A stretch of 64,000 nt of DNA, taken from NCBI GenBank assembly GCA_016176335.1, contig JACOXI010000003.1, positions 6,920-70,919 on the forward strand, read 5' to 3'. Origin of the DNA: Candidatus Daviesbacteria bacterium. Lineage in GTDB: Bacteria > Patescibacteriota > Microgenomatia > Daviesbacterales > UBA10151. Below, one piece after another: positions 12,064 to 58,830 of the stretch. Both the position numbers and the translations under genes were made by a program. The stretch's first letter is position 1, and each line of letters starts with the position of its first letter. Under the pieces are notes generated by a model, which was not told the DNA's origin, ran no database searches, and saw only the letters and a program-made list of their open reading frames with translations.

Positions 12064-13233
12064 ATGGTAGAATTGCCTTTCATGAAAAGCAAACTTTCTC
12101 TTCGCGACTTTCCTTCCGCTCAAAAAAGACGCCAGTTTTTAGAAAAAGAGTTAAAACTAGACTTGGACAGTCTTGGTAGTTTCACTTTTTCAGAGGAAGA
12201 AGTCACCGGTAGAAATATAGAAAATCTAATTGGAGCAACACATATTCCTTTGGGTATCGCTGGTCCACTCAAAATCATAAATCATAAATCATCAATCATA
12301 AATCACTTTATACCATTGGCCACTACCGAAGGAGCATTGGTAGCTTCTTTATCCCGCGGCTGCAAGGCCATCACAGAAAGTGGCGGGACAGAAGTTTTGG
12401 TGGAAAATATCGGTATCACCCGCGGCCCGGTATTTAGGACTGAAAGCTTGCAGCATGGACAACAAATCAAAAAGTGGGTGGAGCAAAACTTCACCAAGTT
12501 GGCCAAGGTATCAAAAAGTACTTCTTCCCATCTGAAATTACTGAAAGTAGAACCAGCCATGGTGGGACGTAATTTGTGGCTTCGTTTCTATTTTGATACT
12601 GAAGATGCCATGGGCATGAATATGGCAACAATTGCCACAGATGAGGCAGTGAAACTAATTGAAAAGGAAACAAAAGCTAAGTGTATATCTTTGGCAGGAA
12701 ATTATGACATTGACAAAAAGCCCTCTTGGCTGAATTTCATTTCCGGGCGGGGTAAAAAGGTCTGGGCAGAAGCTGTCTTACCCAAAAAAGTGGTCAGGGA
12801 AGTGCTTAAAACTACGCCGGAAAAGATGGCCGAGGTAGTCTATAGAAAATGCTTGCTGGGTTCAGCAGTCAGCGGTTCATTGGGCTTTAATGCTCATTTT
12901 GCCAATATACTCTCCGCCATCTTTCTGGCCACCGGCCAAGATCCCGCTCATGTGGTGGAAGGCAGTTTGGGAGTGACCACTGCCGAGGTTATGCCCAATG
13001 GCAACTTATATTTCTCCGTCTATCTGCCATCTTTGGTGGTGGGAGTAGTTGGCGGAGGAACACATCTGCCTACCCAAAAAAAAGCCTTAGAAATTATGCA
13101 GGTGAACAATGTGCTAGAATATACTCGGGCTGTGGGAGCAGCTGTTATTTCTGGTGAAATTTCATTAATTGCCTCTCTTTCGGAAGGAAGTTTGGCAAAA
13201 GCACACCGGAAACTGGGTAGAAAAGGAAAATAG
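12064..13233 (+). CDS. hmgA: Hydroxymethylglutaryl-CoA reductase (class I, archaeal/eukaryotic type)
   Basis: 'ENLIGATHIPLGIAGPLKI...TTEGALVASLSRGCKAI' matches. The track ORF starts at 11992 inside the upstream gene, and an in-frame ATG at 12064 is the more likely start. It contains an in-frame 'atcataa' tandem repeat that encodes 'IINHKSSIINH'. Confidence 0.85.
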   Translation: MVELPFMKSKLSLRDFPSAQKRRQFLEKELKLDLDSLGSFTFSEEEVTGRNIENLIGATHIPLGIAGPLKIINHKSSIINHFIPLATTEGALVASLSRGCKAITESGGTEVLVENIGITRGPVFRTESLQHGQQIKKWVEQNFTKLAKVSKSTSSHLKLLKVEPAMVGRNLWLRFYFDTEDAMGMNMATIATDEAVKLIEKETKAKCISLAGNYDIDKKPSWLNFISGRGKKVWAEAVLPKKVVREVLKTTPEKMAEVVYRKCLLGSAVSGSLGFNAHFANILSAIFLATGQDPAHVVEGSLGVTTAEVMPNGNLYFSVYLPSLVVGVVGGGTHLPTQKKALEIMQVNNVLEYTRAVGAAVISGEISLIASLSEGSLAKAHRKLGRKGK

Positions 13234-13383
13234 GAGCGAAGTCACAAGTAATCAAAAAATGTAGTGCAGTTGAGCGCACCACTTATTCAATGTTTCGAAA
13301 CCAGAATCTGGCGCGAAACAAACACCAAGTGAGCGATCCGGTCGCGCGAACGGTTTTTTGTACTGTGACGAGCGACAAACATT
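13234..13383 (+). repeat. ~145-bp dispersed repeat element, copy 1 (fills the hmgA / HMG-CoA synthase intergenic region)
   Basis: It is near-identical to 26611..26759 and 57806..57960. It shares 'agcgaagtca...caaaaaatgt.gtgcagttgagc...ggcgcgaaac...gcgagcgacctggtcgcgcgagcggttttttg...tgacgagc'. Confidence 0.8.
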
Positions 13384-14427
13384 ATGATAGGCATTGTTTC
13401 TTACGGAGTTTATATACCAATATTTAGGATCAAACCATCGCAAATTGCTCAAGCTTGGGGTAAAGGGTTTGGGGAAATTGAAAAATCTTTGGGGGTATAT
13501 GAGAAGACAGTTGCCTCATATGATGAGGATGCTATAACTTTGGCAGTTGAAGCCTCATACCAAGCTTTAGTAAACGCCCAAATCAAACCACAACAAATAG
13601 ATGCCATCACAGTTGGTTCAGAGTCCCATCCGTACGCTGTAAAACCATCCTCAACTACAGTGGCAGGAATTTTGGGGTTACCAGAAGAATTGCTGGCAGT
13701 AGATTTGGAATTTGCCTGCAAAGCAGGAACAGCAGGGATTCAACTACTTGCCGACTTTTCCCAGGCAGGTCATGCCAAATACTGCTTGGCAGTGGGATCT
13801 GATGTTGCTCAATCGCGTCCATCCGATGTTTTGGAATACACCGCCTCATCCGCCGCCGCAGCCTTTATTTTGGGTAAAAGTAATATCATTGCCAATATAG
13901 TAGATTTCACGTCTTTCTCTTCTGATACTCCTGATTTTTGGAGAAGAGACAGCGAAAAATTTCCCTCTCATGCAGGCAGATTTACAGGCTCCCCTGCTTA
14001 CTTTGCCCACGTATTAGGTGCATCAGAAAGGATGTTTGAGAAAACTAAAATGAAGCCTCAAGATTTTGATTATGCTGTTTTCCATATGCCCAATGCCAAA
14101 TTTCCCAAAGAGGCCGCCAAAAAATTGGGATTTACTCCCAAACAACTTGAGGCAGGATTTATTGTTCCCCAAATAGGCAACCCCTATTCTGCCTCATCAA
14201 TGATCGGTTTGGCTGCCATCTTGGATGTGGCAAAGGCAGGAGATAAAATTTTTATGTGCTCATATGGATCGGGAGCCGGTTCAGATGCTTTCATGTTTGA
14301 GGTAACAAAAGAAATTACAGCTCATCAAAAAAGAAATCAGGAAACTGTAACAAAACAAATTAAAGATAAAGAGTATATAGATTACTCACTAATTGCTAAA
14401 AATATTTTGACAAAGTACAGGATCTAG
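13384..14427 (+). CDS. Hydroxymethylglutaryl-CoA synthase (archaeal type)
   Basis: 'MIGIVSYGVYIPIFRI' is the archaeal HMGCS N-terminus. It sits in the mevalonate operon with thiolase and DUF35. Confidence 0.85.
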   Translation: MIGIVSYGVYIPIFRIKPSQIAQAWGKGFGEIEKSLGVYEKTVASYDEDAITLAVEASYQALVNAQIKPQQIDAITVGSESHPYAVKPSSTTVAGILGLPEELLAVDLEFACKAGTAGIQLLADFSQAGHAKYCLAVGSDVAQSRPSDVLEYTASSAAAAFILGKSNIIANIVDFTSFSSDTPDFWRRDSEKFPSHAGRFTGSPAYFAHVLGASERMFEKTKMKPQDFDYAVFHMPNAKFPKEAAKKLGFTPKQLEAGFIVPQIGNPYSASSMIGLAAILDVAKAGDKIFMCSYGSGAGSDAFMFEVTKEITAHQKRNQETVTKQIKDKEYIDYSLIAKNILTKYRI

Positions 14428-14538
14428 AGGAATGTAGAATTCAGAGTTTAGAGTTCAGAATGGTGTAGAATTTAGAATTCTTAAATTGATTATAAATTCT
14501 AAATTTAATTCTGAATTATGAATTCTTAATTATAAATT

Positions 14539-15672: not shown

Positions 15673-15773
15673 AACTCAAATGTCAAAACTCAAAACTACA
15701 ACTATAATCTCAAAAGTTTTAAGATTTAAGATGCAGATTTGCAATTTGAGATCTAAGATTTGAGATAAATATT

Positions 15774-17499: not shown

Positions 17500-17655
17500 C
17501 TCTGGAAATTCACTCCTTTGACCCCTTCTAACTTCTCCCCTAAGTTGTCTAATATTTCTCTTTCGGTAAATTTCGTCATATTGTAAGAATTCTAAACGTT
17601 AGTCATGCCAAAATCAAGCATAGCTTTCCTAATTTAGGTAATATATAATCCAGCC

Positions 17656-24351: not shown

Positions 24352-24963
24352 TCAATTAAACTGATTTTGGGCTTTTTCCAAGCCCTGTTCCAAAAGAATA
24401 TCTAAAGCTTTAACAGCCTGTTTTATCATATGTTTTACTTTTGATTTTTCAGAATGCCTGAATGGTTCCAATACAAACTTATTTGTATCAACATGAGCGT
24501 GTTTATGTTCTGAACTTTGAGTTCGTAAATTGCCGATACCTAATCTTACTCTGATAAATTTATCTGTACCTAAAGAATTAATTATGGATTCCACTCCATG
24601 ATGTCCTGCTGCTGCTCCTCCCAATCTGACTTTAATTTTTCCCAAAGGTAAATCCAAATCATCATGAATCACAATTAGATCGGTAGTCGACTCGCCTCGC
24701 GAAGCGGGTAGTTTGTAGTATGTAGTAAGGAGTTTTACAGCTATCCCAGAGTTATTCATATAGGTTTGAGGTTTTACAAGGGTTAAGCGGGAAGCGTTAA
24801 GGGTGAAGTCTAAAATTTCAGACTTAAATTTTTCTTCATATTTCCAACTTTCCCCTTGCCCCTTTACCCTTTTCCCTAACTCCTCCACCACCATAAACCC
24901 CAAATTGTGCCTGACTTTGGTATATTTTTCCCCTGGATTTCCCAAACCAACTATTAATTTCAC
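24352..24963 (-). CDS. pth: Peptidyl-tRNA hydrolase; carries an in-frame GC-rich insert
   Basis: 'MKLIVGLGNPGEKYTKVRHNLGF' matches. An insert 'LPASRGESTTDLIV' comes from the 'tcgcctcgcgaagcggg' motif. Confidence 0.9.
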   Translation of the reverse strand: MKLIVGLGNPGEKYTKVRHNLGFMVVEELGKRVKGQGESWKYEEKFKSEILDFTLNASRLTLVKPQTYMNNSGIAVKLLTTYYKLPASRGESTTDLIVIHDDLDLPLGKIKVRLGGAAAGHHGVESIINSLGTDKFIRVRLGIGNLRTQSSEHKHAHVDTNKFVLEPFRHSEKSKVKHMIKQAVKALDILLEQGLEKAQNQFN

Positions 24964-25787
24964 CCTCTTAATGCCTCCAAGATTTGCTCATGGATTAACC
25001 CATTAGAAGCTACTATATTTACTCTTTCCTTAGTCCAATCAGGCTCCTTACCTTCAAAATCTGTCACCATCCCACCTGCTTCCCTAACAATCACTGTCCC
25101 AGCCACAAAATCCCAAGGATATGCATAATTTACATGTAGATCTAAGATACCTTCTGCCACCATACTCAATGAAGCTACAGCTGATCCAAAAGAATAAATA
25201 TAACCTATTTTTGTAATTAACTTGTTCACATATAGATTCAGTTTATGCTGCCTTTTTAGGTTGTGGCCAAAATCTAATACCCCAACTGATGCAGTCAAAC
25301 CTTTTTTCTTGCTAACTTGAATGGCTTTCCCATTCAAATAAGCAGAGCTTGCCTTTCCTTCTGACAGGAAAGACCCCTGTCCTTTTTGTGCCCAATATAA
25401 ATTGTTAAAACTGACGTTATATATTACGCCTAAAATTGGTTTTCCCTCCCCTAAAAGACCAATGGATACAGAAAAATATGGGATACCTGAACCGAATGAG
25501 ATGCTACCATCTAAAGGATCTACAACCCAAGTAAATTTAGATTTTTTATCTATTTTTGCTTCCTCTTCAGATATTAAGTTATGGTCGGGAAAACTAGAAG
25601 TTAATATCTTTACTATGATTTTTTCAGCTTCAAGGTCTGCCTCAGTTGCATAATCTGTGGGATCTTCATGCTTAACATTTTTATGTTGATCCTTACCAGA
25701 ATATTTTTTTATTATCTTCCCAGCCTCCAAAGCAGCTTGTTTGGCAACTTTTAAAAATTGATTATCCATGTTTTTAAATCTTTTCAA
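24960..25787 (-). CDS. Inositol monophosphatase family protein
   Basis: 'WVVDPLDGSISF' is the IMPase motif. It is a paralog of the next gene. Confidence 0.8.
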   Translation of the reverse strand: MKRFKNMDNQFLKVAKQAALEAGKIIKKYSGKDQHKNVKHEDPTDYATEADLEAEKIIVKILTSSFPDHNLISEEEAKIDKKSKFTWVVDPLDGSISFGSGIPYFSVSIGLLGEGKPILGVIYNVSFNNLYWAQKGQGSFLSEGKASSAYLNGKAIQVSKKKGLTASVGVLDFGHNLKRQHKLNLYVNKLITKIGYIYSFGSAVASLSMVAEGILDLHVNYAYPWDFVAGTVIVREAGGMVTDFEGKEPDWTKERVNIVASNGLIHEQILEALRG

Positions 25788-25800
25788 AAAGACAAAGTCC

Positions 25801-26607
25801 TTATGTTTTTAAAACATCTAAGATTTGGTTGTGCAAGACACCATTTGATGCCACAATTTCTAATCTTTTTTTTGACCAGTTAATTTTTGCTCCTTTGCTA
25901 TCTGTTACTTTACCACCTGCCTCAGTCACAATAATTGCCCCTGCGATACAATTCCAAATATTAGCTTCATTTGCAAACCCGTCAAAAGAACCTCTGCCTA
26001 TTAATGCCATCATTAATACATCCCCTCCCAAAGCAAATGGGTAACGGATTTTATCAATCAAAGGCAAAATATACTTTTGAGTTTTACTCATCCTTTTTTC
26101 ACGGTGGGCAAAATCTATTCCCAAAATTGCCCCATCCAATTTTTTTGTTTGAGAGACCTTTATCTTCTTACCATTTAGATATGCACCTTTACCTATAGCA
26201 GCATGGTAAAGATCTTTCGGTACAACATGATAAATAACACCCAAGATAGGATTATTTTTGTGTAATAAACCAATGGAAACTGTATATGTTGGTAAACCCA
26301 CTGAAAAGGCAATTGTCCCGTCCAAAGGATCAATAACCCATGTGTAGTCTGATCCTAAATCTGAGATACCTTTTTCTTCGGCAATATAGTTAAATTTGGG
26401 ATAGTTTTTGTGCAGAATCTTTAAAATTGCCTTCTCTGATTCTAAATCTGCTGCTGTTACAAAATTACTGTGATCACCATTTTTATTTTTTTTATCTAAG
26501 TCTTCACCAAGATATTTAGAAATTATTTTCCCTGCCTCAAGTGCAGCCTGTTTTGCTACTTTCAAAAATTTTAGATCGTTAGATCGCAAGCTTTGCTTAT
26601 CATTCAT
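25801..26607 (-). CDS. Inositol monophosphatase family protein (tandem paralog)
   Basis: 'WVIDPLDGTIAF' is the IMPase motif. The track start (GTG at 26631) lies inside the repeat element. The internal ATG ('MNDKQSL...FLKVAKQAALEAGKII') aligns with the paralog N-terminus. Confidence 0.75.
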   Translation of the reverse strand: MNDKQSLRSNDLKFLKVAKQAALEAGKIISKYLGEDLDKKNKNGDHSNFVTAADLESEKAILKILHKNYPKFNYIAEEKGISDLGSDYTWVIDPLDGTIAFSVGLPTYTVSIGLLHKNNPILGVIYHVVPKDLYHAAIGKGAYLNGKKIKVSQTKKLDGAILGIDFAHREKRMSKTQKYILPLIDKIRYPFALGGDVLMMALIGRGSFDGFANEANIWNCIAGAIIVTEAGGKVTDSKGAKINWSKKRLEIVASNGVLHNQILDVLKT

Positions 26608-26610
26608 ATT

Positions 26611-26759
26611 AAGTAAAGATAGCGAAGTCACAAGCAGTCAAAAAATGTTGTGCAGTTGAGCATACCACTTTATTCATGACCGATTCCATTCCATGGCGCG
26701 AAACGAACACAAGCGAGCGACCTGGTCGCGCGAGCGCTTTTTTGCGCTGTGACGAGCTA
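26611..26759 (+). repeat. ~145-bp dispersed repeat element, copy 2 (fills the PRTase/IMPase intergenic region)
   Basis: It aligns end-to-end with copies at 13234..13383 and 57806..57960. Its 'tgacgagctag' end supplies the PRTase stop codon. Confidence 0.8.
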
Positions 26760-27398
26760 GCTTGTCAATAATTGTACCACCTCTTCATCTGATACAGGCT
26801 CAAATTTGTGATAAAACTGGCCAACTGCCTGGAAATACTCAGGTGTTTCCAAAACCACTACCTCCCCGAACTCTCCTAACTCCCTGATGATTTTCTCTAC
26901 TGGTTCTTTACTTGCCACAGGTATGGCCAAGATTATTTTTTTAGCTTCATGCCTTTTTAAATACCTGACAGCAGAAAGTGTTGTTGCACCTGTGGCAATC
27001 CCATCATCAACAAGGATTACAGTTTTACCTCCGACATTAAGAGGTTTTTTTTCTCGCCTATATAAATCCTCTCTCCTTGTTATCTCTTCTACCTCATTTT
27101 TCACTGTTTCCTTCAAATCATAAATCGTTGATCCTAAATCATCAATCAAATTCTGATCCCACACCACCTCACCATCCGGATCTACTGCTCCCAAAGCCAA
27201 TTCAGGCTGGGTCAGGGCACCTATTTTTCTGGTCACAATAATATCCAAGGGTAAGTTTAATGATTCTGCTACTGCGGATGCCACCACCACTCCTCCTCTG
27301 GGAATACCAAGTACCAGGACATTATCTTTACCTTTGTAGTGTTTAAGATGTTTTGCGAGCAATTTCCCGGCTGATTGTCTATCTTTAAAAATCTTCAT
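26757..27398 (-). CDS. Phosphoribosyltransferase (type I PRTase fold)
   Basis: 'VILVDDGIATGATTLSAV' is the PRPP-binding motif. Confidence 0.7.
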   Translation of the reverse strand: MKIFKDRQSAGKLLAKHLKHYKGKDNVLVLGIPRGGVVVASAVAESLNLPLDIIVTRKIGALTQPELALGAVDPDGEVVWDQNLIDDLGSTIYDLKETVKNEVEEITRREDLYRREKKPLNVGGKTVILVDDGIATGATTLSAVRYLKRHEAKKIILAIPVASKEPVEKIIRELGEFGEVVVLETPEYFQAVGQFYHKFEPVSDEEVVQLLTS

Positions 27399-29424: not shown

Positions 29425-31158
29425 CTACTTTCTAAACTGCAGTTTGTACATTTCCATCAGCTCTTTCAGGGTGGTGGCATCTTCGGCCTTCTTGTCTGCT
29501 TCCCTAAATTTGACCAATCTGGGAAAACGCAGGGCCAGACCGGCCGTATGAAGCGGGCTTTTAGTGATCTCATCTGCCAGAACCTCAATCACAATCTTTG
29601 GTTCCACCCACACACTGGGAGTAATCAATGACCTTACTCTGGCTGGTTTACTTTTAACCTTCAACTTCTCACCTTTAACTTTTATCTCTCTCCACTCTTC
29701 ATCTGTCAACCCTGTCCCAATTTTGGAAACTGTTACAAACTCATCTTTGTCCTGATCATAAACTCCCACGAGGAGCGCTCCTGCTCCAAAAGCAGATCTT
29801 TTACCTTTACCAAAAATATATCCTAAAATCACACAATCTATGGTATCTTTTAACTCTCCGTCAGAGTGTCTTTTTAACTTGACCCAGTTAAAATTCCTGG
29901 CCCCTGCCTCATACTTGGAAGTAGGCCTTTTGACAATTAACCCTTCCAAACCCTTAGTCAGTGCGTCATCAAAAAGCTCCTGTATCCTTTCCACTGAATC
30001 TGTGATCTCTCCTGGCTGCGGAATTAAAACTTCGTGTCCCTTAATTCTTGATTCTAACTGCTTGATTCTTACTTTAAGAGGCAAATCCATTAAAGATTGG
30101 TCATCCAAATACATCACATCAAATACAAATGCCTTAAGCGGTAATTTTACAGCCATCTCCTCTATTCCGTACTTACGACGCCTTTTGGTGGTTTCCTGAA
30201 AAGGTAAAAACTCTTCAGACTGCGGATTAAAAGCCAAAGCTTCTGAATCTAAAATTGCAGTTTTTGCCGATACCTGAGATAAAACTCCTTTAATAATATC
30301 CGGAAACATAGGAGTTGTTTCTTCTAAATTTCTGGAAAAAAGTCTGACCTTGCTACCGTCTTTATGAATTTGTACCCTGAACCCATCGAATTTTTGTTGG
30401 ACATGGGCTTTCCCTCCATATTTTTCCAAAATGGTTTTGGCATCAGGTAATCTTTCTGCAAGTTGTGATCTAATTGGCCTTCCCACAGTTACATCCAAAC
30501 CTTGAACTCCCCGAAGTCCCTGACTCCACAAAACCTCCCCAATCAAACCTAAATCAGACACTTTATTATATGCACCTTCCAAAAGCTTTCTTTTACTTTT
30601 ATCACCCAATTTAGACTTGGCAAAAGCATCCATAATAGTGGGATCACCAATTCCTAACCTTGAGGTTCCCAAAGGGATTCGTACCAGGTGTTTGGCAGAA
30701 ACTCCATCCACTTTATTCAAAAGACTAGAAAGAGCTGTAACCTTCTTTTCAACAGCCCCTTCCCCTGTGGTTTTGGCAATTTCTGTTAAAGTTTTAAAGA
30801 CTTCTGCAACTGACAGAGATCCTTCGACTCTCCCTCGACTAGCTCGGGATCGCTCAGGATGGCTCGCAAATTTGCTCGCCACTATCCCCAAATCCCCTAA
30901 CCTCCCATACTCTTTCAGTACTTGCTCACGTTCTACCCCATAAGCCCGGGCCATTGCTTGAGCAACTAATTTTTCGCTCATCCCAATCTCAATTGGTTCA
31001 TAAAAAGGGGCCACCCGTCCTTGCAGTAAATAAACAACCTCCGCTATTTCACGAGACTTTACTTCATCAAAAAGCTTGGACATGATATCAATAAGCGTAA
31101 GGCGGGAAGAGGTTGATTCTAAATTTTCAAAATACTGCGCCAGTTTACCAAATGTCAT
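29425..31158 (-). CDS. lig: ATP-dependent DNA ligase (archaeal/eukaryotic LigI-like)
   Basis: 'KFDGFRVQIH' is the KxDG adenylation motif I. The length and OB/ligase domains fit. It carries an in-frame insert 'ASHPERSRASRGRVEGS'. Confidence 0.9.
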   Translation of the reverse strand: MTFGKLAQYFENLESTSSRLTLIDIMSKLFDEVKSREIAEVVYLLQGRVAPFYEPIEIGMSEKLVAQAMARAYGVEREQVLKEYGRLGDLGIVASKFASHPERSRASRGRVEGSLSVAEVFKTLTEIAKTTGEGAVEKKVTALSSLLNKVDGVSAKHLVRIPLGTSRLGIGDPTIMDAFAKSKLGDKSKRKLLEGAYNKVSDLGLIGEVLWSQGLRGVQGLDVTVGRPIRSQLAERLPDAKTILEKYGGKAHVQQKFDGFRVQIHKDGSKVRLFSRNLEETTPMFPDIIKGVLSQVSAKTAILDSEALAFNPQSEEFLPFQETTKRRRKYGIEEMAVKLPLKAFVFDVMYLDDQSLMDLPLKVRIKQLESRIKGHEVLIPQPGEITDSVERIQELFDDALTKGLEGLIVKRPTSKYEAGARNFNWVKLKRHSDGELKDTIDCVILGYIFGKGKRSAFGAGALLVGVYDQDKDEFVTVSKIGTGLTDEEWREIKVKGEKLKVKSKPARVRSLITPSVWVEPKIVIEVLADEITKSPLHTAGLALRFPRLVKFREADKKAEDATTLKELMEMYKLQFRK

Positions 31159-33403: not shown

Positions 33404-33485
33404 GATTATAGCTATCAGTCTTCAGCTATCAGCTTTCAGACTGTACCTAAAAATGTCTGACGACTGACGACTGAAAGCCGACGAC
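33404..33485 (+). repeat. Palindromic 'CAGCTATCAG...GTCTGACGACTGACGACTGA' element (copy A)
   Basis: It matches copies at 42343..42422 and 56706..56785. Confidence 0.7.
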
Positions 33486-33521
33486 TACTTCAATTTTCGC
33501 ATATTTCCCGCAAAATTCCAA

Positions 33522-36725: not shown

Positions 36726-37781
36726 TTACTTAAGACACTTAATAAATTCATCAAATAAATAACCACCGTCAAATGGACCCGGGTTTGCCTCCGGGTGAAA
36801 TTGAACGGCCATAAATGGCTTTGTTTGATGTTTAATTCCCTCATTTGTCCCATCATTGAGATTGATAAACCATTCACTCCAATCCCGACCTAAACTTTTC
36901 ATATCCACTGCAAAACCATGATTTTGAGCGGTTTGTATAGCAATTTTCCTAGTTTGATCTAGTACAGGCTGATTTTGACCCCTGTGACCATATTTTAACT
37001 TATAGGTGTTTCCGCCGGCTGCCAAAGATAAGATCTGGCTACCCAAACAGATACCAAAGATGGGAATGTTCTTTTTGAGGATTTTTCTGACATTTCCAAC
37101 AGTTTCTTTTGCCTGTTTTGGATCCCCGGGCCCATTTGAAATAAAAACTCCATCGAATTCTATTCCGGAGGTGATTGGATTAAAATCCCAGGGAACTTTT
37201 GTCACCTTAACTCCCCTTTTAACCAAGCTTCTGACAATATTTTCCTTAACCCCGCAATCAATCAGCACAATATTCTTTCTGCCGTCTCCATAAACTTCCA
37301 CTTTATCGCAACTGACGTATGGAAGCATGTTCTCTGAATTCGGATCATAGATGCTTAATTCTTTATTCTTGCTGCTTGATTCTAATTCTATTCTCCCCAA
37401 CATCACCCCGTGCTCTCTTAATTTTGCAGTTAAAGCTCTGGTATCAATCCCCTGCAAGGCCGGAATTTTCTCCTGCTTGAGCCACTCCCCCAAAGTTTTT
37501 TTCGACTCAAAATGAGAAGGATTTTCTATATAATTTTGCACAATCAATCCTTTAACCTGAATTTTTTTTGATTCCCAAAATTGCCTTTTTGGTACTCCGT
37601 AATTACCCTGCAGCGGATAAGTTAAACTTAAAATCTGTCCAAAATATGAAGGATCTGTCAAAGATTCCGGGTATCCTACCATACCGGTATTAAAAACCAC
37701 CTCTCCTGAGGTGGTAACCTCTGATCCAAAACTTTGCCCTAAAAAAACTGTCCCATCGGACAGAGCCAGTCTTCCCTGCAT
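36726..37781 (-). CDS. carA: Carbamoyl-phosphate synthase small subunit (glutamine amidotransferase)
   Basis: It has a CPSase small N-domain and a GATase with a Cys-His ('GICLGSQIL', 'HPE'). Confidence 0.9.
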   Translation of the reverse strand: MQGRLALSDGTVFLGQSFGSEVTTSGEVVFNTGMVGYPESLTDPSYFGQILSLTYPLQGNYGVPKRQFWESKKIQVKGLIVQNYIENPSHFESKKTLGEWLKQEKIPALQGIDTRALTAKLREHGVMLGRIELESSSKNKELSIYDPNSENMLPYVSCDKVEVYGDGRKNIVLIDCGVKENIVRSLVKRGVKVTKVPWDFNPITSGIEFDGVFISNGPGDPKQAKETVGNVRKILKKNIPIFGICLGSQILSLAAGGNTYKLKYGHRGQNQPVLDQTRKIAIQTAQNHGFAVDMKSLGRDWSEWFINLNDGTNEGIKHQTKPFMAVQFHPEANPGPFDGGYLFDEFIKCLK

Positions 37782-42288: not shown

Positions 42289-42346
42289 TAAAAAAGCCCT
42301 TGCAAGTTCCCAAAGATTAACTTTAGAAACTTACAAGGGCCTTATT
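42289..42346 (-). terminator. Terminator/attenuator-like hairpin immediately upstream of argH RBS (minus strand)
   Basis: On the minus strand 'aaggcccuuguaaguu' pairs with 'aacuugcaagggcuu' and is followed by 'uuuuuuaa'. It lies between the leader region and the argH SD. Confidence 0.45.
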
Positions 42347-42422
42347 TCAGCTTTCAGACTTCAGCTATCAGCTTTCAGACTTTTGTAATTGTCTGATGAC
42401 TGACGCCTGACGACTGATGACT
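42343..42422 (+). repeat. Palindromic CAGCTATCAG/GACTGA element (copy B) in the argH leader
   Basis: The sequence is 'cagctttcagacttcagctatcagctttcagactt...gtctgatgactgacgcctgacgactgatgact'. Confidence 0.7.
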
Positions 42423-42457
42423 AATCAAGACGGTGCCACCTTGCTTAAATTTTGCTA

Positions 42458-42967: not shown

Positions 42968-44054
42968 TCTTTCCATTCTCTACCCTCAAAATCCTGGAAG
43001 AATCCAAAAAGGTCTTGGGGATGTTTTCCAGCTCCACCGTGGCAATGATGGTCTGTTGTTTTCCCACCACTTCCACTACATGAGCTCTGTGCATAGCATC
43101 CAGTTCGGAAAAAACATCATCCAGCAAAAGTATTGGTCTTTTGCCTAAAATTTTGGCCATGTATTCAAGTTGAGCTAATTTAAACGCTAAAGTGGCTGTT
43201 CTTTGTTCACCACGGGAGCCAAAACGAGCCAAATTCCGATCTTCCAGTAAGATTTCAAAATCATCCCGATGAGGCCCAATCAAAGTGGCAGCTGCAGCCA
43301 CTTCCCGACCATTTGTTTCCATCAACCGCTCAACTGTCACTGCGCTTTGTTTATACTCAAACCTAAACTCACCTAAAGGTTTTTCCAAACCATTAATAAA
43401 ATTAAAAAAAACTTTTCTTTTTTCACTGATCACTGATCCCTTTTTTACCAACTCATCTGTCCAATAACTTAACTCGTCTGCTTTTCCATAGCCTTCTCTA
43501 ATTCTTTTTAGGATCCTGTTTCTGGAAGTTAAAAACTGCTCATATGAAGTCAGTGTCTTTTTATATTCAGGATCAATTTGTGCCAACCCCAAGTCCAAAT
43601 GCCAGCGGCGAAGACTTGGTGCACCTGCTACCATATTTATATCCTGGGGATAAAAAATTACGGCAGGCAAATTGCCGATAAAATCCAAAACTCTTCTTGG
43701 AACCCCGTTTACCAAAGCCTTTTTTCTAAAACTCACTTCATCGGATACCTTGTTGATAATCACTAAAAGCTCTGTTTCTATTTCCCCTTCTTTTAGAAAA
43801 CCCTCTACTCTGGTAAAACTTTCATTATCGTAAATCAGCTCGTCTTCAGTCCCAACCCTTAAAGACTTGGTGGTGGAAAGAAGATAGATTGACTCCAGCA
43901 AGTTTGACTTGCCCGCAGCATTATTCCCCACTAGGATGGTTGGCCGGGCATCGAATCGTAATTCGAGTTGTGCATAATTTCTGAAGTTAGTCAAATTAAT
44001 TTGCTTAAGAAACACGATGATGCCTAGAATAAAGAATAAAGAATCAAGAATCAA
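42921..44054 (-). CDS. recF: DNA replication and repair protein RecF
   Basis: 'LTNFRNYAQLELRFDARPTILVGNNAAGKSNLLESIYLLS' contains the Walker A motif. The SMC-like signature is present. Confidence 0.85.
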   Translation of the reverse strand: MILDSLFFILGIIVFLKQINLTNFRNYAQLELRFDARPTILVGNNAAGKSNLLESIYLLSTTKSLRVGTEDELIYDNESFTRVEGFLKEGEIETELLVIINKVSDEVSFRKKALVNGVPRRVLDFIGNLPAVIFYPQDINMVAGAPSLRRWHLDLGLAQIDPEYKKTLTSYEQFLTSRNRILKRIREGYGKADELSYWTDELVKKGSVISEKRKVFFNFINGLEKPLGEFRFEYKQSAVTVERLMETNGREVAAAATLIGPHRDDFEILLEDRNLARFGSRGEQRTATLAFKLAQLEYMAKILGKRPILLLDDVFSELDAMHRAHVVEVVGKQQTIIATVELENIPKTFLDSSRILRVENGKITSLVPNGRPDGTAG

Positions 44055-44098
44055 GCATGAGTTACTGTCTATTAAGCTTCATTCATAATTCTTACAGC

Positions 44099-45475
44099 TT
44101 AATTCTTGCCCTCCCAGTGTCCCAGTCCCAAAAACTCCCTGACATGTAACGGCAAGGATTTTTTGGAAAAAAACAGGCTGGGCTTCAGACCAAATAACCC
44201 AATCAATAAAATTGCCCCACCCAGTCCGATAAAGATTGGTGTTGTTCCAAAGATATCTGCCAAAACCCCTGAAATAAGTACAGGTATTAAAGATAATCCA
44301 GACATAACCGCCCCTAATACAGAAAAGACCTTACCTCTATCTGTTTCAGAGGTATTTTCCTGTAAGACTGTTTGAGATGGAACTAATATAGAGACCATGG
44401 CCATACCCATCAAAAATGATCCAACCACCAGTATTTTAGATAAAGGCGGCTGATAGAAAAAGGGCAGGGGTCTAGGATGCGGTAGATAGGCAATAGCAGG
44501 TGAAATAATTGGGGCAATTCCCACCAGGAAAAATAATAATCCGGCAAAAATAATTGCTCGGGAAACCAATTTCCTTTTGATCAATTTATTACCAAATCTG
44601 CCTAACATGATTCCCCCTGCAATAATTCCTAATCCCAGCGGAATGATTAAAACATAAGATGCGTCTGTGGCTTTAATTTGTAGAGATTTTTCCAAAAAAG
44701 AGGGCACCAGCACAGCCAAAGTTCCAATTACCATCTGCACTCCTGCCAAAATCATAATTGATGTAAGAACCGACAACTTCCCTCTAATCAACTTGATAGT
44801 CTCAAAAATCTCAAACAGACCAATTTCTTTGATATCAGCATATTTCCTCTTTCTTAATGCCACAATCAATCTCTCTCCCTGCTCATCAGCTTTTGTCACA
44901 ATAGATGGAAAAGCAAGAGCTAATAAAAAGGCGCCAAAAAGTAGCACCCCACCAAGTCCAAAAACAAAGTTTATTCCCAAATGATTAATTAAGGGACCTG
45001 CCAAACCAAAGCCTAAAAGAAAGCAGGAATAAAGGGTGGCAGAAAAAAGAGAGTTGGCAGTGATTAATTGATTTCTTCTGACAACCAAAGGAATTGCTGA
45101 AGCCTCGGCTGGGCCATAAAATTGGCCTAAGGCATTAACAAAAAAGGCAACCATAAGGATTGCCGGAAAACTGCCTTTGAAAAATATTAAGCTGAAAAAA
45201 GACAAACTCAAGAAAAGATCTATCATCATAATGATCTTTTTTCTGTCAATTAAATCTACCAATACTCCTGAAAAAAGTCCTAAGATTACTGCCGGCAGAT
45301 ATATGGCAAAAAGAAGAGCTGAAACTGCTAAGGACGAGTCAGTTAACTTAAAAACCCAAATAATTAAAGCAAAATTGAGGGCGTTATAGGAAAGCTGAAC
45401 TAAAATTTGATTTATCCAAAGGTTTAAAAATCCCCTGTTTTGTAAAACATGGGTGATAGATGTCTTCTCAACCAT
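44099..45475 (-). CDS. MFS transporter
   Basis: It has 12-14 predicted TM helices and an MFS-like loop 'GRFGNKL'. Confidence 0.8.
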   Translation of the reverse strand: MVEKTSITHVLQNRGFLNLWINQILVQLSYNALNFALIIWVFKLTDSSLAVSALLFAIYLPAVILGLFSGVLVDLIDRKKIIMMIDLFLSLSFFSLIFFKGSFPAILMVAFFVNALGQFYGPAEASAIPLVVRRNQLITANSLFSATLYSCFLLGFGLAGPLINHLGINFVFGLGGVLLFGAFLLALAFPSIVTKADEQGERLIVALRKRKYADIKEIGLFEIFETIKLIRGKLSVLTSIMILAGVQMVIGTLAVLVPSFLEKSLQIKATDASYVLIIPLGLGIIAGGIMLGRFGNKLIKRKLVSRAIIFAGLLFFLVGIAPIISPAIAYLPHPRPLPFFYQPPLSKILVVGSFLMGMAMVSILVPSQTVLQENTSETDRGKVFSVLGAVMSGLSLIPVLISGVLADIFGTTPIFIGLGGAILLIGLFGLKPSLFFSKKSLPLHVREFLGLGHWEGKN

Positions 45476-53678: not shown

Positions 53679-54488
53679 TCAGACTGCTTTGGCTACCTTT
53701 ATCAATTGCCCAAAGCTTAATTTTGTTTGTCTTGCGTCAGGAGCTGCGGATGAGCCACAAAGTACCATATGATGGGATTGGTGTAAATACCAGGAAGCAG
53801 CAGGATCAATCTCTTTGGCCTTTTCATAGATTGGAGTTAAATCCAAAGTTTGGGATGGAGTGAAATATTGAACTGATTTGTATTTGGGATGGTAGATTAA
53901 AAACAAATCTCCACCCATCCTTTTGCAAAAAGGTCTGTCTATTGTTTCTGAATTTAGCGCGTAAGATTTGCCGAATTTGGATTCAAACTCAATCCTTCCT
54001 TCCCAATCCTTAATAGACTGTTGTTTCTTTTGCAATCCCTTCAAAATCCTATCTAAAATATCAGTACCCAAAATAACATCTTTTAAAGAACCCCTTTCTG
54101 TTGTATCTTTGCTTCTTATGAATGCCGGAACAGAAAATTCATCATATGCTTCAATTGGAATTGTTCCCGTATCAATTTTTTTATTCCAGTCCACCATTTC
54201 TGCCAAAGCCGGAGCAGTGATCTCATCCTTGGGCAGTAAATTTTCTTTTTTAAGATAGTCAAAAACCAGGCTGCCTGCGCAAGTGTTTAAACCTTCTTTG
54301 TGCTCATCAAACTTTCCCCCGCCTGTTCCCACAAAAACCCGGTCCTCTGTCTCCTGATCCGCCAGATTATGGGTAGCGGAAATAAATTCAATTTTTGCGC
54401 CAGCATATTTGGGATCATATTTTTTCAAAAGCCAAATGGCAAAAATATCATCCAAATGCGGGTTGATGTGTGTGACTAAGTTTTTCAT
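53679..54488 (-). CDS. MYG1/UPF0160-like metal-dependent hydrolase
   Basis: 'THINPHLDDIFAIW' resembles the MYG1 'THNGTFHCDEALA'. 'GGGKFDEHKEG' resembles 'YDHHQ'. Confidence 0.5.
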   Translation of the reverse strand: MKNLVTHINPHLDDIFAIWLLKKYDPKYAGAKIEFISATHNLADQETEDRVFVGTGGGKFDEHKEGLNTCAGSLVFDYLKKENLLPKDEITAPALAEMVDWNKKIDTGTIPIEAYDEFSVPAFIRSKDTTERGSLKDVILGTDILDRILKGLQKKQQSIKDWEGRIEFESKFGKSYALNSETIDRPFCKRMGGDLFLIYHPKYKSVQYFTPSQTLDLTPIYEKAKEIDPAASWYLHQSHHMVLCGSSAAPDARQTKLSFGQLIKVAKAV

Positions 54489-54579
54489 AACAAGTGATTT
54501 ATGAACAATGATTTAAGATTATGAATTTTATCATAAATACAATCTTCTAAATCATAGATCAATTCTGTACTATGATAGT

Positions 54580-56532: not shown

Positions 56533-58830
56533 TCATAACACTAATAACTTCATCTCTCCCCAATTGGGGCCTACTTTTAGATCCACCACTACTGGTACAG
56601 ATAATTTTAGGGCATTTTCCATTTTATCTTTGACCATTTGGGCAATTTCTTTAACGCTCTTGGGGTCACACTCAAACAACAATTCATCATGAACCTGGAG
56701 GATGAGTCGGCAGCTATCAGATCGTTCGCTGCGCTCACTGTCAGCTTTCAGACTGTCTGACGACTGATGACTGATGACTGATAACTCCTTATCAATTTCC
56801 ACCATGGCCTTTTTGATCATATCTGCTGCTGTTCCTTGAACCGGATGATTGATGGCTGCTCTCTCACCAGCTGCTTTGATGGCGTGATTTGAGGCTGTAA
56901 GTTCAGGGATATATCTTTTCCTGCCCCAAAGAGTTTCAACATACCCCCTTTCATATCCAAAGGCTAAAGTCTTTTGCATCCACTGGGAAACTTTGGGGAA
57001 TTGTGCAAAATATTCCGCAATATATGTTCGCGCCACCTCATATTCCACCCCTAACTGACGGGACAAGGCATGGGGGCCCTGACCATATAACGTTGCAAAG
57101 TTCATGGTTTTACCTACATTTCTTTGCTGTTTTGTAATTTTATCAATTGGCATTTTGAAAATTTTACTGGCAGTTGCTACATGAATGTCTAATCCTTCTC
57201 TGAAGGACTTTCTTAATCCCGGATCATCTGCCAAATGAGCCATAATCCTAAGCTCGATTTGTGAATAATCAGCTGCCAAAAGTACCTTGCCTTTGGGAGC
57301 AATGAAGGCGCGTCTTATTTCTCCACCCTCCTCACCTTTAATTGGGATATTTTGCATGTTTGGGTTTTGAGAAGACAGCCTGCCTGTGGCAGCTCCTTCC
57401 ACATTAAAAGTGGAGTGAATCCTGCCATCTAATCCTACAGATTTAGGCAAGGCATCTATGTAGGTTGATACCAGTTTGAAAAGCTGGCGATACTCTAAAA
57501 GTAATGGCACTACAGGATGAGCTGCTACCAACTCATGAAGGGTGGCCTCATCTGTTGATCTACCAGTTTTGGTCTTTCTCACCACTGGTAATTTAAGTTC
57601 GTCAAACAGAATCTGCGACAGTTGCTTTGGGCTGTTCGGATTAAACTCATGTCCTATTTTTGAGTAAATTTCTTTTTCTAATTTAATTAATCTACCTTTT
57701 AAGGCTTTCCCAAGTCTCTCTAAAAACCTTAAATCTATTAGTACACCAGTTTTGGACATCCTTTCTAAAACTGGCTGTACAGCTAAATCCAAATCCGTGG
57801 TATTTATGGAGTTAGCGAAGTCAGAGGTAGCCAAAAAATGTGGCGCAGTTGAGCGCACATCCTTATCCATGCTTGAATTACCTACTTGGCGCGAAACAAG
57901 TCCCAAGCGAGCGACCTGGTCGCGCGAGCGGTTTTTTGCATCCTGACGAGCTACTCCCACACCTGGAATCCTACCAATCAAACTTTTAAACTCCAATTCT
58001 TCAAACAATTTAACTACTTTTTCTTTATCAAAATCATGAACCTCACACTTCTTCAAATCTAACTTAATTGGGGCTTTGCCATCTAAGGTGGCTAGTTTTT
58101 TACTCATTACAGCATCTTCTGCACCTTCTGCCAACAGCTTTTGCATTCTTTGCGGTAAAGTTTTTAAATTCTTGGGACGGTAAATTTCTTCAATCGTGCC
58201 AAACTGGTGTATTAATTTTGTCGCAGATACATCCCCTATTCCAGAAACTCCCGGGATATTATCCGATGCATCTCCTGCCAGCGCCTTATAATCAACCAAA
58301 AGTTTGGGTGCAAATCCATATCTTGCCACAAACTCTTCCTCCCCATACAGCCCCACATCCGCAAGGGTTTTTTTAGGCATAAAAACTTTCACTTTTCCAT
58401 TAATCAGCTGCATGATATCCCGATCACCTGTCACAATAATAATTTCTAATTTCAAATTTTTAATTTTTAATGCTTGGCTTGCCAGTGTGGCAATCAGATC
58501 ATCTGCCTCATAACCTGATAAGCTAAATTGCGGCATGTTAAATGCCCTGATGACCTCATGCACTCTGTGATATTGATTACCCAATGCCTGATCCAGCTCA
58601 CGTCTTGTGGCTTTATATTGAGTATAAGCTTGATGTCTAAATGTCGGCCCCCTTTCATCCCAGGCAACGGCCAGAAATGTAGGTTTAAGCTCATTTAAAA
58701 CCTTCAGCATCATTGAGGAAAATCCATATACAGCATTGACCAGTTCTCCTTGGGAAGTAGTAAAAGGAGGAGTAGCATGATAAGCCCGATGCAGCAAAGC
58801 ATTACCATCAACTAAAACCAGTCGTTTCAT
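56533..58830 (-). CDS. polA: DNA polymerase I (5'-3' exonuclease + polymerase domains; no evident 3'-5' exonuclease domain); carries two in-frame repeat inserts
   Basis: The N-terminal 5' nuclease is 'MKRLVLVDGNALLHRAYHA'. The Pol A motifs 'DYSQIELRI' and 'QVHDELLFE' are present. Inserts lie at 57806-57960 (the 145-bp element) and 56706-56785. Confidence 0.9.
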   Translation of the reverse strand: MKRLVLVDGNALLHRAYHATPPFTTSQGELVNAVYGFSSMMLKVLNELKPTFLAVAWDERGPTFRHQAYTQYKATRRELDQALGNQYHRVHEVIRAFNMPQFSLSGYEADDLIATLASQALKIKNLKLEIIIVTGDRDIMQLINGKVKVFMPKKTLADVGLYGEEEFVARYGFAPKLLVDYKALAGDASDNIPGVSGIGDVSATKLIHQFGTIEEIYRPKNLKTLPQRMQKLLAEGAEDAVMSKKLATLDGKAPIKLDLKKCEVHDFDKEKVVKLFEELEFKSLIGRIPGVGVARQDAKNRSRDQVARLGLVSRQVGNSSMDKDVRSTAPHFLATSDFANSINTTDLDLAVQPVLERMSKTGVLIDLRFLERLGKALKGRLIKLEKEIYSKIGHEFNPNSPKQLSQILFDELKLPVVRKTKTGRSTDEATLHELVAAHPVVPLLLEYRQLFKLVSTYIDALPKSVGLDGRIHSTFNVEGAATGRLSSQNPNMQNIPIKGEEGGEIRRAFIAPKGKVLLAADYSQIELRIMAHLADDPGLRKSFREGLDIHVATASKIFKMPIDKITKQQRNVGKTMNFATLYGQGPHALSRQLGVEYEVARTYIAEYFAQFPKVSQWMQKTLAFGYERGYVETLWGRKRYIPELTASNHAIKAAGERAAINHPVQGTAADMIKKAMVEIDKELSVISHQSSDSLKADSERSERSDSCRLILQVHDELLFECDPKSVKEIAQMVKDKMENALKLSVPVVVDLKVGPNWGEMKLLVL
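56706..56785 (+). repeat. Palindromic CAGCTATCAG/GACTGA element (copy C) in-frame inside polA
   Basis: The sequence is 'cagctatcag...ctgtcagctttcagactgtctgacgactgatgactgatgactga'. It encodes 'SVISHQSSDSLKADSERSERSDS'. Confidence 0.7.
57806..57960 (+). repeat. ~145-bp dispersed repeat element, copy 3, in-frame inside polA (antisense to the gene)
   Basis: It aligns over its full length with the 13234..13383 and 26611..26759 copies. It is translated as 'ARQDAKNRSRDQVARLGLVSRQVGNSSMDKDVRSTAPHFLATSDFANSINT'. Confidence 0.8.

What the first reader, a model, noticed from the sequence alone, without database searches (positions are those of the whole stretch)
57806..57960. A ~145-bp dispersed repeat element sits in-frame inside the DNA polymerase I gene
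Three near-identical copies of one element occur in 64 kb, all in the same orientation on the + strand. Two fill intergenic gaps exactly (13234-13383 and 26611-26759). The third lies inside polA, antisense to the gene, and is translated without a stop as a 51-aa insertion ('ARQDAKNRSRDQ...FANSINT'). It lies in the linker between the 5'-nuclease and polymerase domains. The element has conserved ends ('agcgaagtca' ... 'tgacgagc'). Internally it has an imperfect hairpin 'gcgagcgacc-tgg-tcgcgcgagcg' followed by a T6-7 run. This mirrors Rickettsia palindromic elements, which also invade coding genes in-frame. I am not aware of a described equivalent for CPR-like genomes.
Basis: seen in the sequence. 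Interest (0 to 1): 0.85.

Follow-up and report, generated by a model that had tools for sequence, protein, structure and literature searches.

The report
Self-folding repeat inserted in-frame in polA
A roughly 150-base self-folding repeat scattered through Daviesbacteria (CPR) genomes sits in-frame inside the DNA polymerase I gene and other essential genes, much like the palindromic elements of Rickettsia, and always lies on the same compositional strand of the chromosome.

Summary
The window, from a Candidatus Daviesbacteria MAG, holds three copies of a ~150-nt element, all on the + strand and 75-78% identical to each other. Two fill intergenic gaps. The third is read through as 48-50 codons in the disordered linker of PolA.

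Thirty distinct copies from about 12 Daviesbacteria genomes or contigs share one fold: a closing stem, a long stem, and a tight three-way junction with two hairpin arms. The fold also has three conserved GA/GA-type internal loops. Pairing holds in 95.8% of cells, and 26 of 36 pairs show compensatory changes. No Rfam family matches.

About half the copies lie inside real genes, in either orientation: polA, rplA, rplL, pgk, GT4, WecG and Wzy. So the Rickettsia-palindromic-element analogy holds.

New findings:
- In all 18 loci the element's sense strand is the C-rich strand, whatever the gene direction.
- G-U-type and A-C-type mismatches are equally frequent (28 versus 27).

Both results point to a DNA-level, replication-linked element rather than an RNA gene. 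No transposase, target duplication or empty site was found, so the way it moves is inferred. I class it as a new variant of a known kind.

The parts
57805..57962 (+). Copy C of the element. It lies inside polA, antisense to the gene. The core, 57811-57954, equals codons 293-340.
   Evidence: Covariance model R1 scores 153.4 bits, E 1.2e-41. It is open only in the polA frame. AlphaFold gives pLDDT below 50 for residues 293-340.
13226..13384 (+). Copy A. It fills the spacer between the HMG-CoA-reductase-like ORF and HMG-CoA synthase, in the sense orientation relative to both.
   Evidence: R1 scores 150.9 bits. The closest relatives carry other repeats at this junction.
26612..26768 (+). Copy B. 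It fills the spacer between two minus-strand genes, antisense to both. By eye these look like an inositol monophosphatase and a phosphoribosyltransferase.
   Evidence: R1 scores 142.5 bits.
56533..58830 (-). polA ORF of 765 aa, with a 5'-nuclease and a family A polymerase domain and no 3'-5' exonuclease domain. It is the host of copy C.
   Evidence: ORF. Pfam places 5_3_exonuc_N at 3-172, 5_3_exonuc at 174-270 and DNA_pol_A at 369-759. It is 100% identical to an NCBI Candidatus Daviesbacteria protein.
57808..57819 (+). Copy C, 5' strand of closing stem P1 (GGAGU-U-AGC) followed by the conserved GAA of the GAA/GA internal loop. The partners are 57948-57957 (GA + GCUACUCC).
   Evidence: Fold. 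P1 covaries across copies (CAGC/GCUG, UGGC/GCCA, CGGC/GCCG).
57820..57838 (+). Copy C, 5' strand of the long stem P2/P2b, including the A6 run. It pairs with 57932-57947 (U6 run + GCAUCCUGAC).
   Evidence: Eight of 8 P2 pairs and 4 of 7 P2b pairs show compensatory changes. AAAAAA/UUUUUU alternates with AAGCA/UGCUU across the family.
57839..57905 (+). Copy C, P3 arm. It holds a covarying basal helix, then the invariant GCAGUUGAGCGCAC and GGCGCGAAAC, which form GUU-GA-GCGC / GCGC-GA-AAC. These enclose a variable loop of about 30 nt (57859-57887).
   Evidence: Searches support the helices. The loop shows no conserved pairing.
57907..57929 (+). Copy C, P4 hairpin (GC-GA-GC ... GC-GA-GC) with a tandem GA loop. 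With the following T-run it looks like a terminator.
   Evidence: Searches support the hairpin. It is called terminator-like. In about half of the family the T-run is replaced by UGCUU, with a compensating change in the A-run.

Best explanation
What it is: Copy C is a member of a Daviesbacteria-specific family of ~150-nt, structure-defined dispersed repeats. The family behaves like Rickettsia palindromic elements (RPEs). It is a non-autonomous, self-complementary module that has colonised intergenic spacers. It has also colonised permissive loops, linkers and termini of proteins.

In polA (shown): The element adds 48-50 codons to an already hypervariable, disordered linker between the 5'-nuclease and polymerase domains. 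It is simply translated through. This copy is stop-free in exactly the frame polA uses.

The fold (shown): The family's fold is kept by compensatory substitutions. It has a closing stem, a GAA/GA loop, a long stem and a tight three-way junction. The junction carries two similar imperfect hairpins, each with a tandem GA loop.

Orientation (shown): The orientation is fixed relative to the chromosome's compositional strand asymmetry and is independent of gene direction.

Mechanism (inferred): The fold is the single-stranded-DNA form of the element, and it matters at the replication fork. One route is strand-specific mobilisation, as in IS200/IS605 elements and REPINs. The other is strand-dependent survival of hairpin-forming DNA. 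In either case the element is not a stand-alone RNA gene.

Not identified: the mobilising enzyme.
For: - Family and structure: 30 distinct copies come from about 12 genomes or contigs, all from Daviesbacteria or unnamed CPR-like bins. Pairing holds in 95.8% of cells against 28-44% when partners are slid. 26 of 36 pairs change on both sides. No shuffle out of 500 reaches the observed score.
- Coding insertions: Copies lie in both orientations and several frames within PolA, GT4, WecG, PGK, Wzy_C, L7/L12 and L1.
- Stop depletion: Copies average 1.9 open frames against 0.8 in shuffles. The 'AKS' sense frame is open in 20 of 30 copies.
- PolA insert: It lies between the Pfam domains. It sits in a linker that varies from about 8 to about 80 aa among 120 orthologues. 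AlphaFold gives pLDDT below 50 for residues 293-340.
- Long residence with different fates: The polA-site copy is intact in the window, partly decayed in L186 and nearly erased in L187. The orthologous rplA copies keep about 93% pairing (about 96% without the two outermost closing-stem pairs) and show 9 compensatory pairs among themselves.
- Polarity: In all 18 loci on 15 contigs the sense strand is the C-rich strand. ORFs on that strand have coding-strand GC skew -0.03 (GC3 -0.10, n=65). ORFs on the other strand have +0.17 (GC3 +0.20, n=119), p about 5e-21. The same direction is seen in every locus that has both classes. Every multi-copy contig has one orientation only: 3/3, 7/7 over 67 kb, 2/2, 2/2 and 2/2.
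- Gene direction does not predict orientation: Copies are sense in the HMGR-like/HMGS spacer, rplA, rplL and Wzy, and antisense elsewhere.
- No strand preference in mismatches: G-U-type cells number 28 and A-C-type cells 27, unlike typical RNAs.
- No Rfam hit.
- Precedents: REPINs show compensatory changes in an ssDNA hairpin (PMC3116915). IS200/IS605 orientation is tied to the lagging-strand template (PMC5027513).
Against: - No transposase or RAYT-like gene was seen. No longer autonomous version or split hit turned up in 200 kb of related loci.
- No target-site duplication, no conserved flanking target motif and no clean empty site were found. Mobility itself is therefore inferred from the dispersed, non-syntenic locations.
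- Copies within one genome are old (60-80% identical), so there is no sign of recent activity.
- Compensatory changes among the orthologous rplA copies suggest selection in place. A purely selfish, immobile relic would not show that.
- Conservation of the GA/GA loops on one named strand fits an RNA or a protein-binding motif just as well.
- Calling the C-rich strand 'lagging' is uncertain. Some Microgenomates have an unusual chromosome-wide G/C disparity with rRNA genes on the C-rich strand (PMC7143001). Here the ribosomal protein genes also sit on the C-rich strand.
Confidence: 0.7

Rival explanations
1. The element is a functional structured RNA. It could be a multi-copy small RNA, a self-cleaving ribozyme, or a cis-acting mRNA module for processing, stability or termination. 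On this view the DNA copies are RNA genes or motifs that happen to be tolerated inside ORFs.
For: Covariation is very strong, while junction and loop nucleotides are nearly invariant, as in riboswitches and ribozymes. Three tandem-GA-type internal loops lie on one strand. The orthologous rplA copies keep the fold through compensatory changes. P4 plus U6 looks like a terminator.
Against: No Rfam family matches, even at E up to 10. G-U-type and A-C-type cells are equal, 28 versus 27. Most copies are antisense to their host or flanking genes, so the named strand would need its own promoter, and none was found in the two regions scanned, around copies A and C. Orientation follows strand composition, not transcription. 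The U-run is not conserved as such. The hammerhead-like strings CUGACGAG and CGAAAC sit in covarying helices, and the junction strands are only 0, 1 and 2 nt long.
Confidence: 0.13
2. The element is a host-domesticated, polar chromosomal DNA element. Possible roles include a site for a replication, repair, segregation or nucleoid protein, comparable in logic to polar motifs such as Chi or KOPS, or to BIME/REP protein-binding sites. On this view it is kept by host selection and is no longer mobile.
For: Polarity relative to strand asymmetry is strict in 18 of 18 loci. The core is conserved over long periods and the fold is maintained in place in the rplA copies. Density is roughly one copy per 10-20 kb where the element is present.
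Against: Three other Daviesbacteria or Microgenomates genomes have no copy in 59 kb around polA, so the distribution is patchy. The polA copy decays freely in L186 and L187. An essential architectural element would not be expected inside coding sequence at non-syntenic places.
Confidence: 0.12
3. The polA segment is only a native, fast-evolving linker or a protein-level module, and its similarity to the intergenic copies is incidental.
For: The linker is hypervariable in length and sequence among orthologues.
Against: The polA segment scores 153 bits against a model of sequence and structure built from all 30 aligned copies, among them its own and the intergenic ones. The same element occurs in other genes in other frames and in the opposite orientation. 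Peptide-level searches find no protein family.
Confidence: 0.02
4. The finding is an assembly or binning artefact, with a repeat wrongly joined into polA in a MAG.
For: One short metagenome contig, L147, is a GT4::element::PolA chimera. This shows that assemblers, or recombination, can join sequences across copies.
Against: In the window both flanks of the insert are polA, in one continuous frame. An independent MAG, L186, carries the element at the same polA site.
Confidence: 0.02

Closest known systems
Rickettsia palindromic elements (RPEs; Ogata et al. 2000, as summarised in PMC10969869 and PMC3184786)
   Same: Both are about 105-150 bp, dispersed and self-complementary. About half of the copies are inserted in-frame in unrelated housekeeping genes, where they add a peptide at sites compatible with the protein fold. 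Both are old and diverged, and the way they move is unknown.
   Different: The host lineage is unrelated (CPR Daviesbacteria), and no sequence relationship was tested. Here the fold is a covariation-supported three-way junction with near-invariant loops, and copies are used in both orientations and several frames. Polarity relative to strand composition is strict; I found no statement of this for RPEs in the papers I read.
REPINs mobilised by RAYT (TnpA_REP) transposases (PMC3116915)
   Same: Both are short non-autonomous elements defined by an ssDNA or RNA hairpin. Compensatory changes keep the hairpin, conserved blocks flank variable parts, and the elements persist and are inherited vertically for a long time.
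   Different: REPINs are extragenic doublets of 20-35-nt REPs. This element is a single ~150-nt unit with a branched fold, and it is common inside genes. No RAYT gene could be looked for at genome scale.
IS200/IS605 family and its ORF-less derivatives (PMC5027513, PMC3201880, PMC6006769)
   Same: Both lack a target duplication. Imperfect hairpins, rather than protein-bound terminal repeats, are the conserved features, and P3 and P4 are two similar imperfect hairpins on the same strand. Orientation is tied to the replication fork.
   Different: The ends of this element pair with each other in a long stem. No conserved tetra- or pentanucleotide target lies next to an end, and no TnpA or TnpB gene is nearby. 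Which strand is the lagging-strand template is unresolved.
Classical bacterial MITEs such as Correia, ERIC, RUP and Nezha (PMC3184786, PMC10969869)
   Same: They have a similar size range, fold into long stem-loops, are mostly intergenic with occasional ORF fusions, and lack a transposase.
   Different: No target-site duplication is present. The apparent flanking T...A is a covarying base pair. The arm sequences drift while their complementarity is kept, which is the opposite of transposase-bound terminal inverted repeats.

Membership tests
RPE-like coding palindromic repeats (functional class) | Dispersed multi-copy element of about 100-150 bp | tested here: met
   There are 3 copies in the window and 30 distinct copies in related contigs.
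RPE-like coding palindromic repeats (functional class) | Self-complementary element predicted to fold into a stable stem-loop | tested here: met
   36 pairs, 95.8% of cells paired, 26 pairs compensatory. Single-copy fold z-scores are -2.2 and -2.6.
RPE-like coding palindromic repeats (functional class) | A large fraction of copies is inserted in-frame in unrelated protein-coding genes | tested here: met
   About half of the copies are in genes. The hosts are PolA, GT4, WecG, PGK, Wzy_C, L7/L12 and L1.
RPE-like coding palindromic repeats (functional class) | The insert lies where the protein fold tolerates it | tested here: met
   In PolA the insert is in the interdomain linker, and residues 293-340 have pLDDT below 50. 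In L1 and L7/L12 it is in N-terminal extensions. The other hosts were not modelled.
RPE families proper (RPE-1 to RPE-10 of Rickettsia) | Sequence homology to a Rickettsia RPE consensus | not tested
   No RPE sequences were available in the tools, and the host is Daviesbacteria. I do not file it as a member, only as working alike.
Classical MITE | Direct target-site duplication flanking the element | tested here: not met
   The flanks show no direct repeat. The bases just outside AGC...GCU covary as pairs, and the closing stem extends 6-10 bp.
Classical MITE | A cognate IS with the same ends | tested here: inconclusive
   The covariance model found no split or partial hits in 200 kb of related loci. 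Whole genomes could not be scanned.
IS200/IS605-derived elements or REPIN-RAYT type ssDNA elements | Orientation fixed relative to the replication strands | tested here: met
   In 18 of 18 loci on 15 contigs the sense strand is the C-rich strand, and ORF skew gives p about 5e-21. Which strand is leading remains uncertain (PMC7143001).
IS200/IS605-derived elements or REPIN-RAYT type ssDNA elements | Subterminal imperfect hairpins on one strand and a conserved short target next to one end | tested here: inconclusive
   P3 and P4 are two similar imperfect hairpins (GAGCG...CGCGA). No conserved flanking motif was seen.
IS200/IS605-derived elements or REPIN-RAYT type ssDNA elements | A Y1 HUH transposase (TnpA or RAYT) in the same genome | not testable with these tools
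   Only a 64-kb window and short loci were held. By eye, the window's ORFs include no transposase.
Known structured RNA families (Rfam 15), including hammerhead | A match to a curated covariance model | tested here: not met
   No hit at gathering score over the whole window. There were no relevant hits at E up to 10 on copies A and C.
Known structured RNA families (Rfam 15), including hammerhead | Hammerhead core (CUGANGA / GAAA / UH) as the single strands of a three-way junction | tested here: not met
   CUGACGAG and CGAAAC lie within covarying helices. The junction strands are 0, 1 and 2 nt long.
Intrinsic terminator | A GC-rich hairpin followed by a conserved U-run | tested here: not met
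   The U6 run pairs with the A6 run. In about half of the copies it becomes UGCUU(U/C), with a compensating AAGCA.

The most novel reading that the evidence does not exclude
The family may be a previously unrecognised kind of replication-polar element defined by its single-stranded fold. Its conserved three-way junction, with three GA loops, would be the substrate of an unknown enzyme or replisome-linked process in CPR bacteria. Alternatively it may be a new structured RNA or ribozyme class. Either way, it is kept by selection even inside essential genes such as rplA, rplL, pgk and polA.
Probability: 0.2. Interest if true: 0.85.

Novelty: new variant of a known kind. Interest (0 to 1): 0.66.

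Why it matters
- New host range: It extends the 'selfish DNA inside protein-coding genes' phenomenon, known mainly from Rickettsia, to the Candidate Phyla Radiation. Those genomes are small and tightly packed, and here the hosts include core replication, translation and glycolysis genes.
- A testable clue to mechanism: Strong covariation, no strand preference in wobble-type mismatches and strict strand polarity together point to how such coding palindromes spread or survive. That question has stayed open for RPEs.
- Practical consequences: These repeats lengthen and diversify CPR proteins and create chimeric contigs (L147). They can also mislead annotation of gene starts, gene ends and 'hypothetical' inserts.

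Tried and rejected
- Hammerhead or other ribozyme: The hammerhead-like motif strings lie in covarying helices, and Rfam finds nothing.
- Integron attC-like site: GTTGAGC fits GTTRRRY, but the order and the partner motif are wrong and the copies are dispersed (own reading).
- TA target duplication: Rejected, because the T and A covary as a base pair.
- Alternative hairpin between the P3 5' strand and the variable loop: No covariation supports it.
- Terminator-avoidance as the cause of the orientation bias: Rejected, because copies are sense to genes on the C-rich strand.
- G-U versus A-C counts split by orientation to the host gene: The trend is weak (p = 0.045) and the data are not independent, so I did not use it.
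- Empty-site comparison at the HMGR-like/HMGS junction: The closest relatives (91%, 89% and 82% protein identity) carry other repeats there, so the ends could not be defined.
- Census of host proteins by the insert peptide: The word-index search found no candidate. The full HMMER scan found only one unrelated repetitive protein.
- Viral contigs: One chance match only.
- Search for an autonomous or split version: None in 200 kb.
- The long non-coding region around the L117 copy: It contains nothing recognisable.
Full report
**The observation.** Reading the three places and aligning them shows one element of about 140-150 nt on the + strand at about 13234-13375, 26620-26759 and 57811-57954. nhmmer gives E about 1e-45 for each. 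A covariance model built later scores them at 151, 143 and 153 bits and finds nothing else in the window above 10.3 bits. The copies are 75-78% identical to each other, not near-identical.

- Copy A fills the spacer between an HMG-CoA-reductase-like ORF (named by eye) and HMG-CoA synthase, both on the + strand.
- Copy B fills the spacer between two minus-strand genes.
- Copy C lies inside the 765-aa polA ORF on the minus strand. It is open in only one of six frames, the one polA uses.
- Pfam places 5_3_exonuc at 174-270 and DNA_pol_A at 369-759, so the insert (residues 293-340) is in the interdomain linker.
- An AlphaFold model built on 46 orthologues gives pLDDT below 50 for exactly residues 293-340.

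**Source and relatives.** The PolA is 100% identical to a protein of a Candidatus Daviesbacteria MAG on a 456,706-bp contig. Two pattern scans used conserved internal motifs, one over representative genomes and one over metagenomes. nhmmer and the covariance model were then run on the fetched loci. Together they gave 30 distinct copies. All come from Daviesbacteria MAGs, unnamed or probably mislabelled bins with the same gene content, or groundwater and sediment metagenome contigs. The other pattern matches were chance hits in GC-rich genomes. Three other Daviesbacteria or Microgenomates genomes have no copy in 59 kb around polA, so the distribution is patchy.

**Anatomy.** The alignment of 30 copies (A4) and RNAalifold give the following fold:

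- a closing stem P1 that extends 6-10 bp into a purine-rich 5' flank and a pyrimidine-rich 3' flank;
- a conserved GAA/GA internal loop;
- a long stem, P2/P2b, in which A6/U6 alternates with AAGCA/UGCUU;
- a tight three-way junction with joining strands of 0, 1 and 2 nt;
- arm P3, made of a covarying basal helix and then GUU-GA-GCGC / GCGC-GA-AAC around an unconserved loop of about 30-40 nt;
- arm P4, GC-GA-GC ... GC-GA-GC.

On the named structure 95.8% of cells are paired, against 28-44% when partners are slid by 1-3 columns. 26 of 36 pairs change on both sides, against 4-8 in the slid controls. No shuffle out of 500 reaches the observed covariation. A scan of all column pairs found no further covarying helix. 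Junction and loop nucleotides are at least 90% conserved while the stems drift. No Rfam family matches.

**The element inside genes.** A context scan, translations and Pfam show that about half of the copies lie inside real genes.

- Antisense copies: PolA (window, L186), a GT4 glycosyltransferase (L100/L178, L147), WecG (L100) and phosphoglycerate kinase (L124).
- Sense copies: a Wzy_C membrane protein (L010), an N-terminal extension of L7/L12 (L100), and an N-terminal extension of L1 in five complete and probably two truncated contigs.

At least three reading frames are used. Copies average 1.9 stop-free frames against 0.8 in shuffles, and the sense 'AKS...AVERT...GAKQT' frame is open in 20 of 30 copies. 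This is the behaviour described for Rickettsia palindromic elements (PMC10969869, PMC3184786).

**History at the polA site.** Among 120 Daviesbacteria PolA orthologues the linker ranges from about 8 to about 80 aa. The element is present at the same place in P0025/L186 at 84.9 bits, with the outer stems intact and the interior decayed. It survives as a relic in P0008/L187 at 19.6 bits. Most orthologues lack it. So the insert is lineage-specific and old, and here it decays.

The rplA copies behave differently. They are 66-86% identical to each other, yet about 93% of cells remain paired (about 96% without the two outermost closing-stem pairs), and 9 of 36 pairs show compensatory changes within this orthologous set. 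That suggests selection on the fold in place. It is the main observation that the purely selfish reading does not explain.

**DNA or RNA.** G-U-type and A-C-type cells are equally frequent, 28 versus 27. Structured RNAs normally tolerate only the former. Intergenic copies are almost all antisense to their neighbours. The two regions scanned, around copies A and C, held no promoter-like site. The U-run is not conserved as a U-run.

**Strand polarity.** Every multi-copy contig has one orientation: 3/3 in the window, 7/7 over 67 kb of Ga0209541_10000063, and 2/2 three times. In all 18 loci on 15 contigs the strand carrying the element's sense sequence has negative GC skew, even where most genes lie on that strand. 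ORFs on that strand have coding-strand GC skew of -0.03 (GC3 -0.10, n=65). ORFs on the other strand have +0.17 (GC3 +0.20, n=119), with Mann-Whitney p about 5e-21. The direction is the same in each locus that has both classes, and named genes behave the same way.

Orientation therefore tracks a gene-independent strand asymmetry of the replication type, not transcription. The copies that are sense to their genes (HMGR-like/HMGS, rplA, rplL, Wzy) are the ones whose host genes sit on the C-rich strand.

There is one caveat. In most bacteria the C-rich strand is the lagging strand. Some Microgenomates, however, show an unusual chromosome-wide G/C disparity with rRNA genes on the C-rich strand (PMC7143001). 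Which strand is the lagging-strand template here is therefore not settled. As DNA, the sense strand folds slightly better than its complement in 26 of 30 copies.

**Mechanism.** These points are shown:

- It is a dispersed, old family defined by its fold.
- Copies are read through in-frame inside essential genes.
- Polarity relative to strand composition is strict.

I infer that the fold matters as single-stranded DNA at the replication fork. One possibility is that insertion or excision is strand-specific, as in IS200/IS605 elements (PMC5027513) and as proposed for REPINs, which also keep their hairpin through compensatory changes (PMC3116915). The other is that only one orientation of such a hairpin survives replication.

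These were not found:

- any transposase, or any longer or split version;
- any target duplication or conserved flanking motif;
- any clean empty site, because the HMGR-like/HMGS junction of the closest relatives holds other repeats.

Peptide-level searches for further host proteins failed.

**Verdict.** The element works like an RPE, but I do not file it as a member of the RPE families. It also fails the MITE test for a target duplication. Among the features of IS200/IS605-type elements, it meets only the polarity test. I rate it a new variant of a known kind. There is a modest chance that it is something more unusual: a new fold-defined ssDNA element or a new RNA class.

Noticed in passing
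window 6703-6740, 9568-9635, 33405-33490, 42344-42426, 56735-56791; L188 165-245: A second dispersed palindromic family is built from about 7-nt units: left arm ...CAGCTATCAGCTTTCAGACT, right arm TGTCTGACGACTGATGACTGA.... It is also read through in-frame. In polA it gives aa 689-704 (SVISHQSSDSLKADSE, pLDDT below 50). It also lies inside a polyprenyl-synthase-like ORF (8922-9830, named by eye). In the closest relative it fills the HMGR-like/HMGS spacer where the window has copy A.
   Followed up: partly
polA orthologues P0001-P0120 (window polA aa 285-345 and 685-706): PolA of Daviesbacteria has two hypervariable sites: the interdomain linker and the loop before motif C (ILQVHDE). In different species these sites contain what look like translations of several different small repeat families, for example VIPANAGIQLN..SELDPRLRGDD, VILNASEGSQDLKSRDSS, IATSPSAPRND and GYRISNIGNRKK.
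   Followed up: partly
L147 1251-2384: A 2.4-kb metagenome contig encodes a GT4 glycosyltransferase N-domain, then the element, then the PolA polymerase domain in one frame. It is either an assembly join or a recombination across two element copies.
   Followed up: no
window 1-64000: The whole window shows one strand asymmetry. Genes on the minus strand have GC3 skew of +0.04 to +0.43 and genes on the plus strand have -0.34 to +0.02. This includes a mevalonate-pathway-like cluster (only HMGS is named by a source; the rest are named by eye) at 11992-20155, which therefore lies on the C-rich strand. In related loci rplK, rplA and rplL also sit on the C-rich strand, recalling the G/C disparity reported for other Microgenomates (PMC7143001).
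   Followed up: partly
window 56533-58830: This PolA has the 5'-nuclease and polymerase domains but no 3'-5' exonuclease domain. One orthologue, P0104 (1164 aa), carries intein and homing-endonuclease Pfam domains.
   Followed up: no
window 8846-8928, 12271-12316, 27114-27152, 54478-54564; and 5944-5981, 16615-16671, 30026-30076, 37354-37396, 44025-44113: Two further low-complexity inverted-repeat families recur, AATCATAAATCAT-type and CTTGATTCTTGA-type, mostly at gene ends. They may be terminator-like hairpins.
   Followed up: no
L027 6621-6734: A shortened copy of the element, 114 nt and 64.8 bits, lies in the same orientation as the full copy 3.8 kb upstream. It looks like an internal-deletion derivative.
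   Followed up: no
window 24960-25787 and 25801-26631: Two tandem paralogous ORFs that look like inositol monophosphatases (named by eye) lie next to copy B. The listed GTG start of the second ORF lies inside the element, so the real start is probably the ATG eight codons downstream.
   Followed up: no
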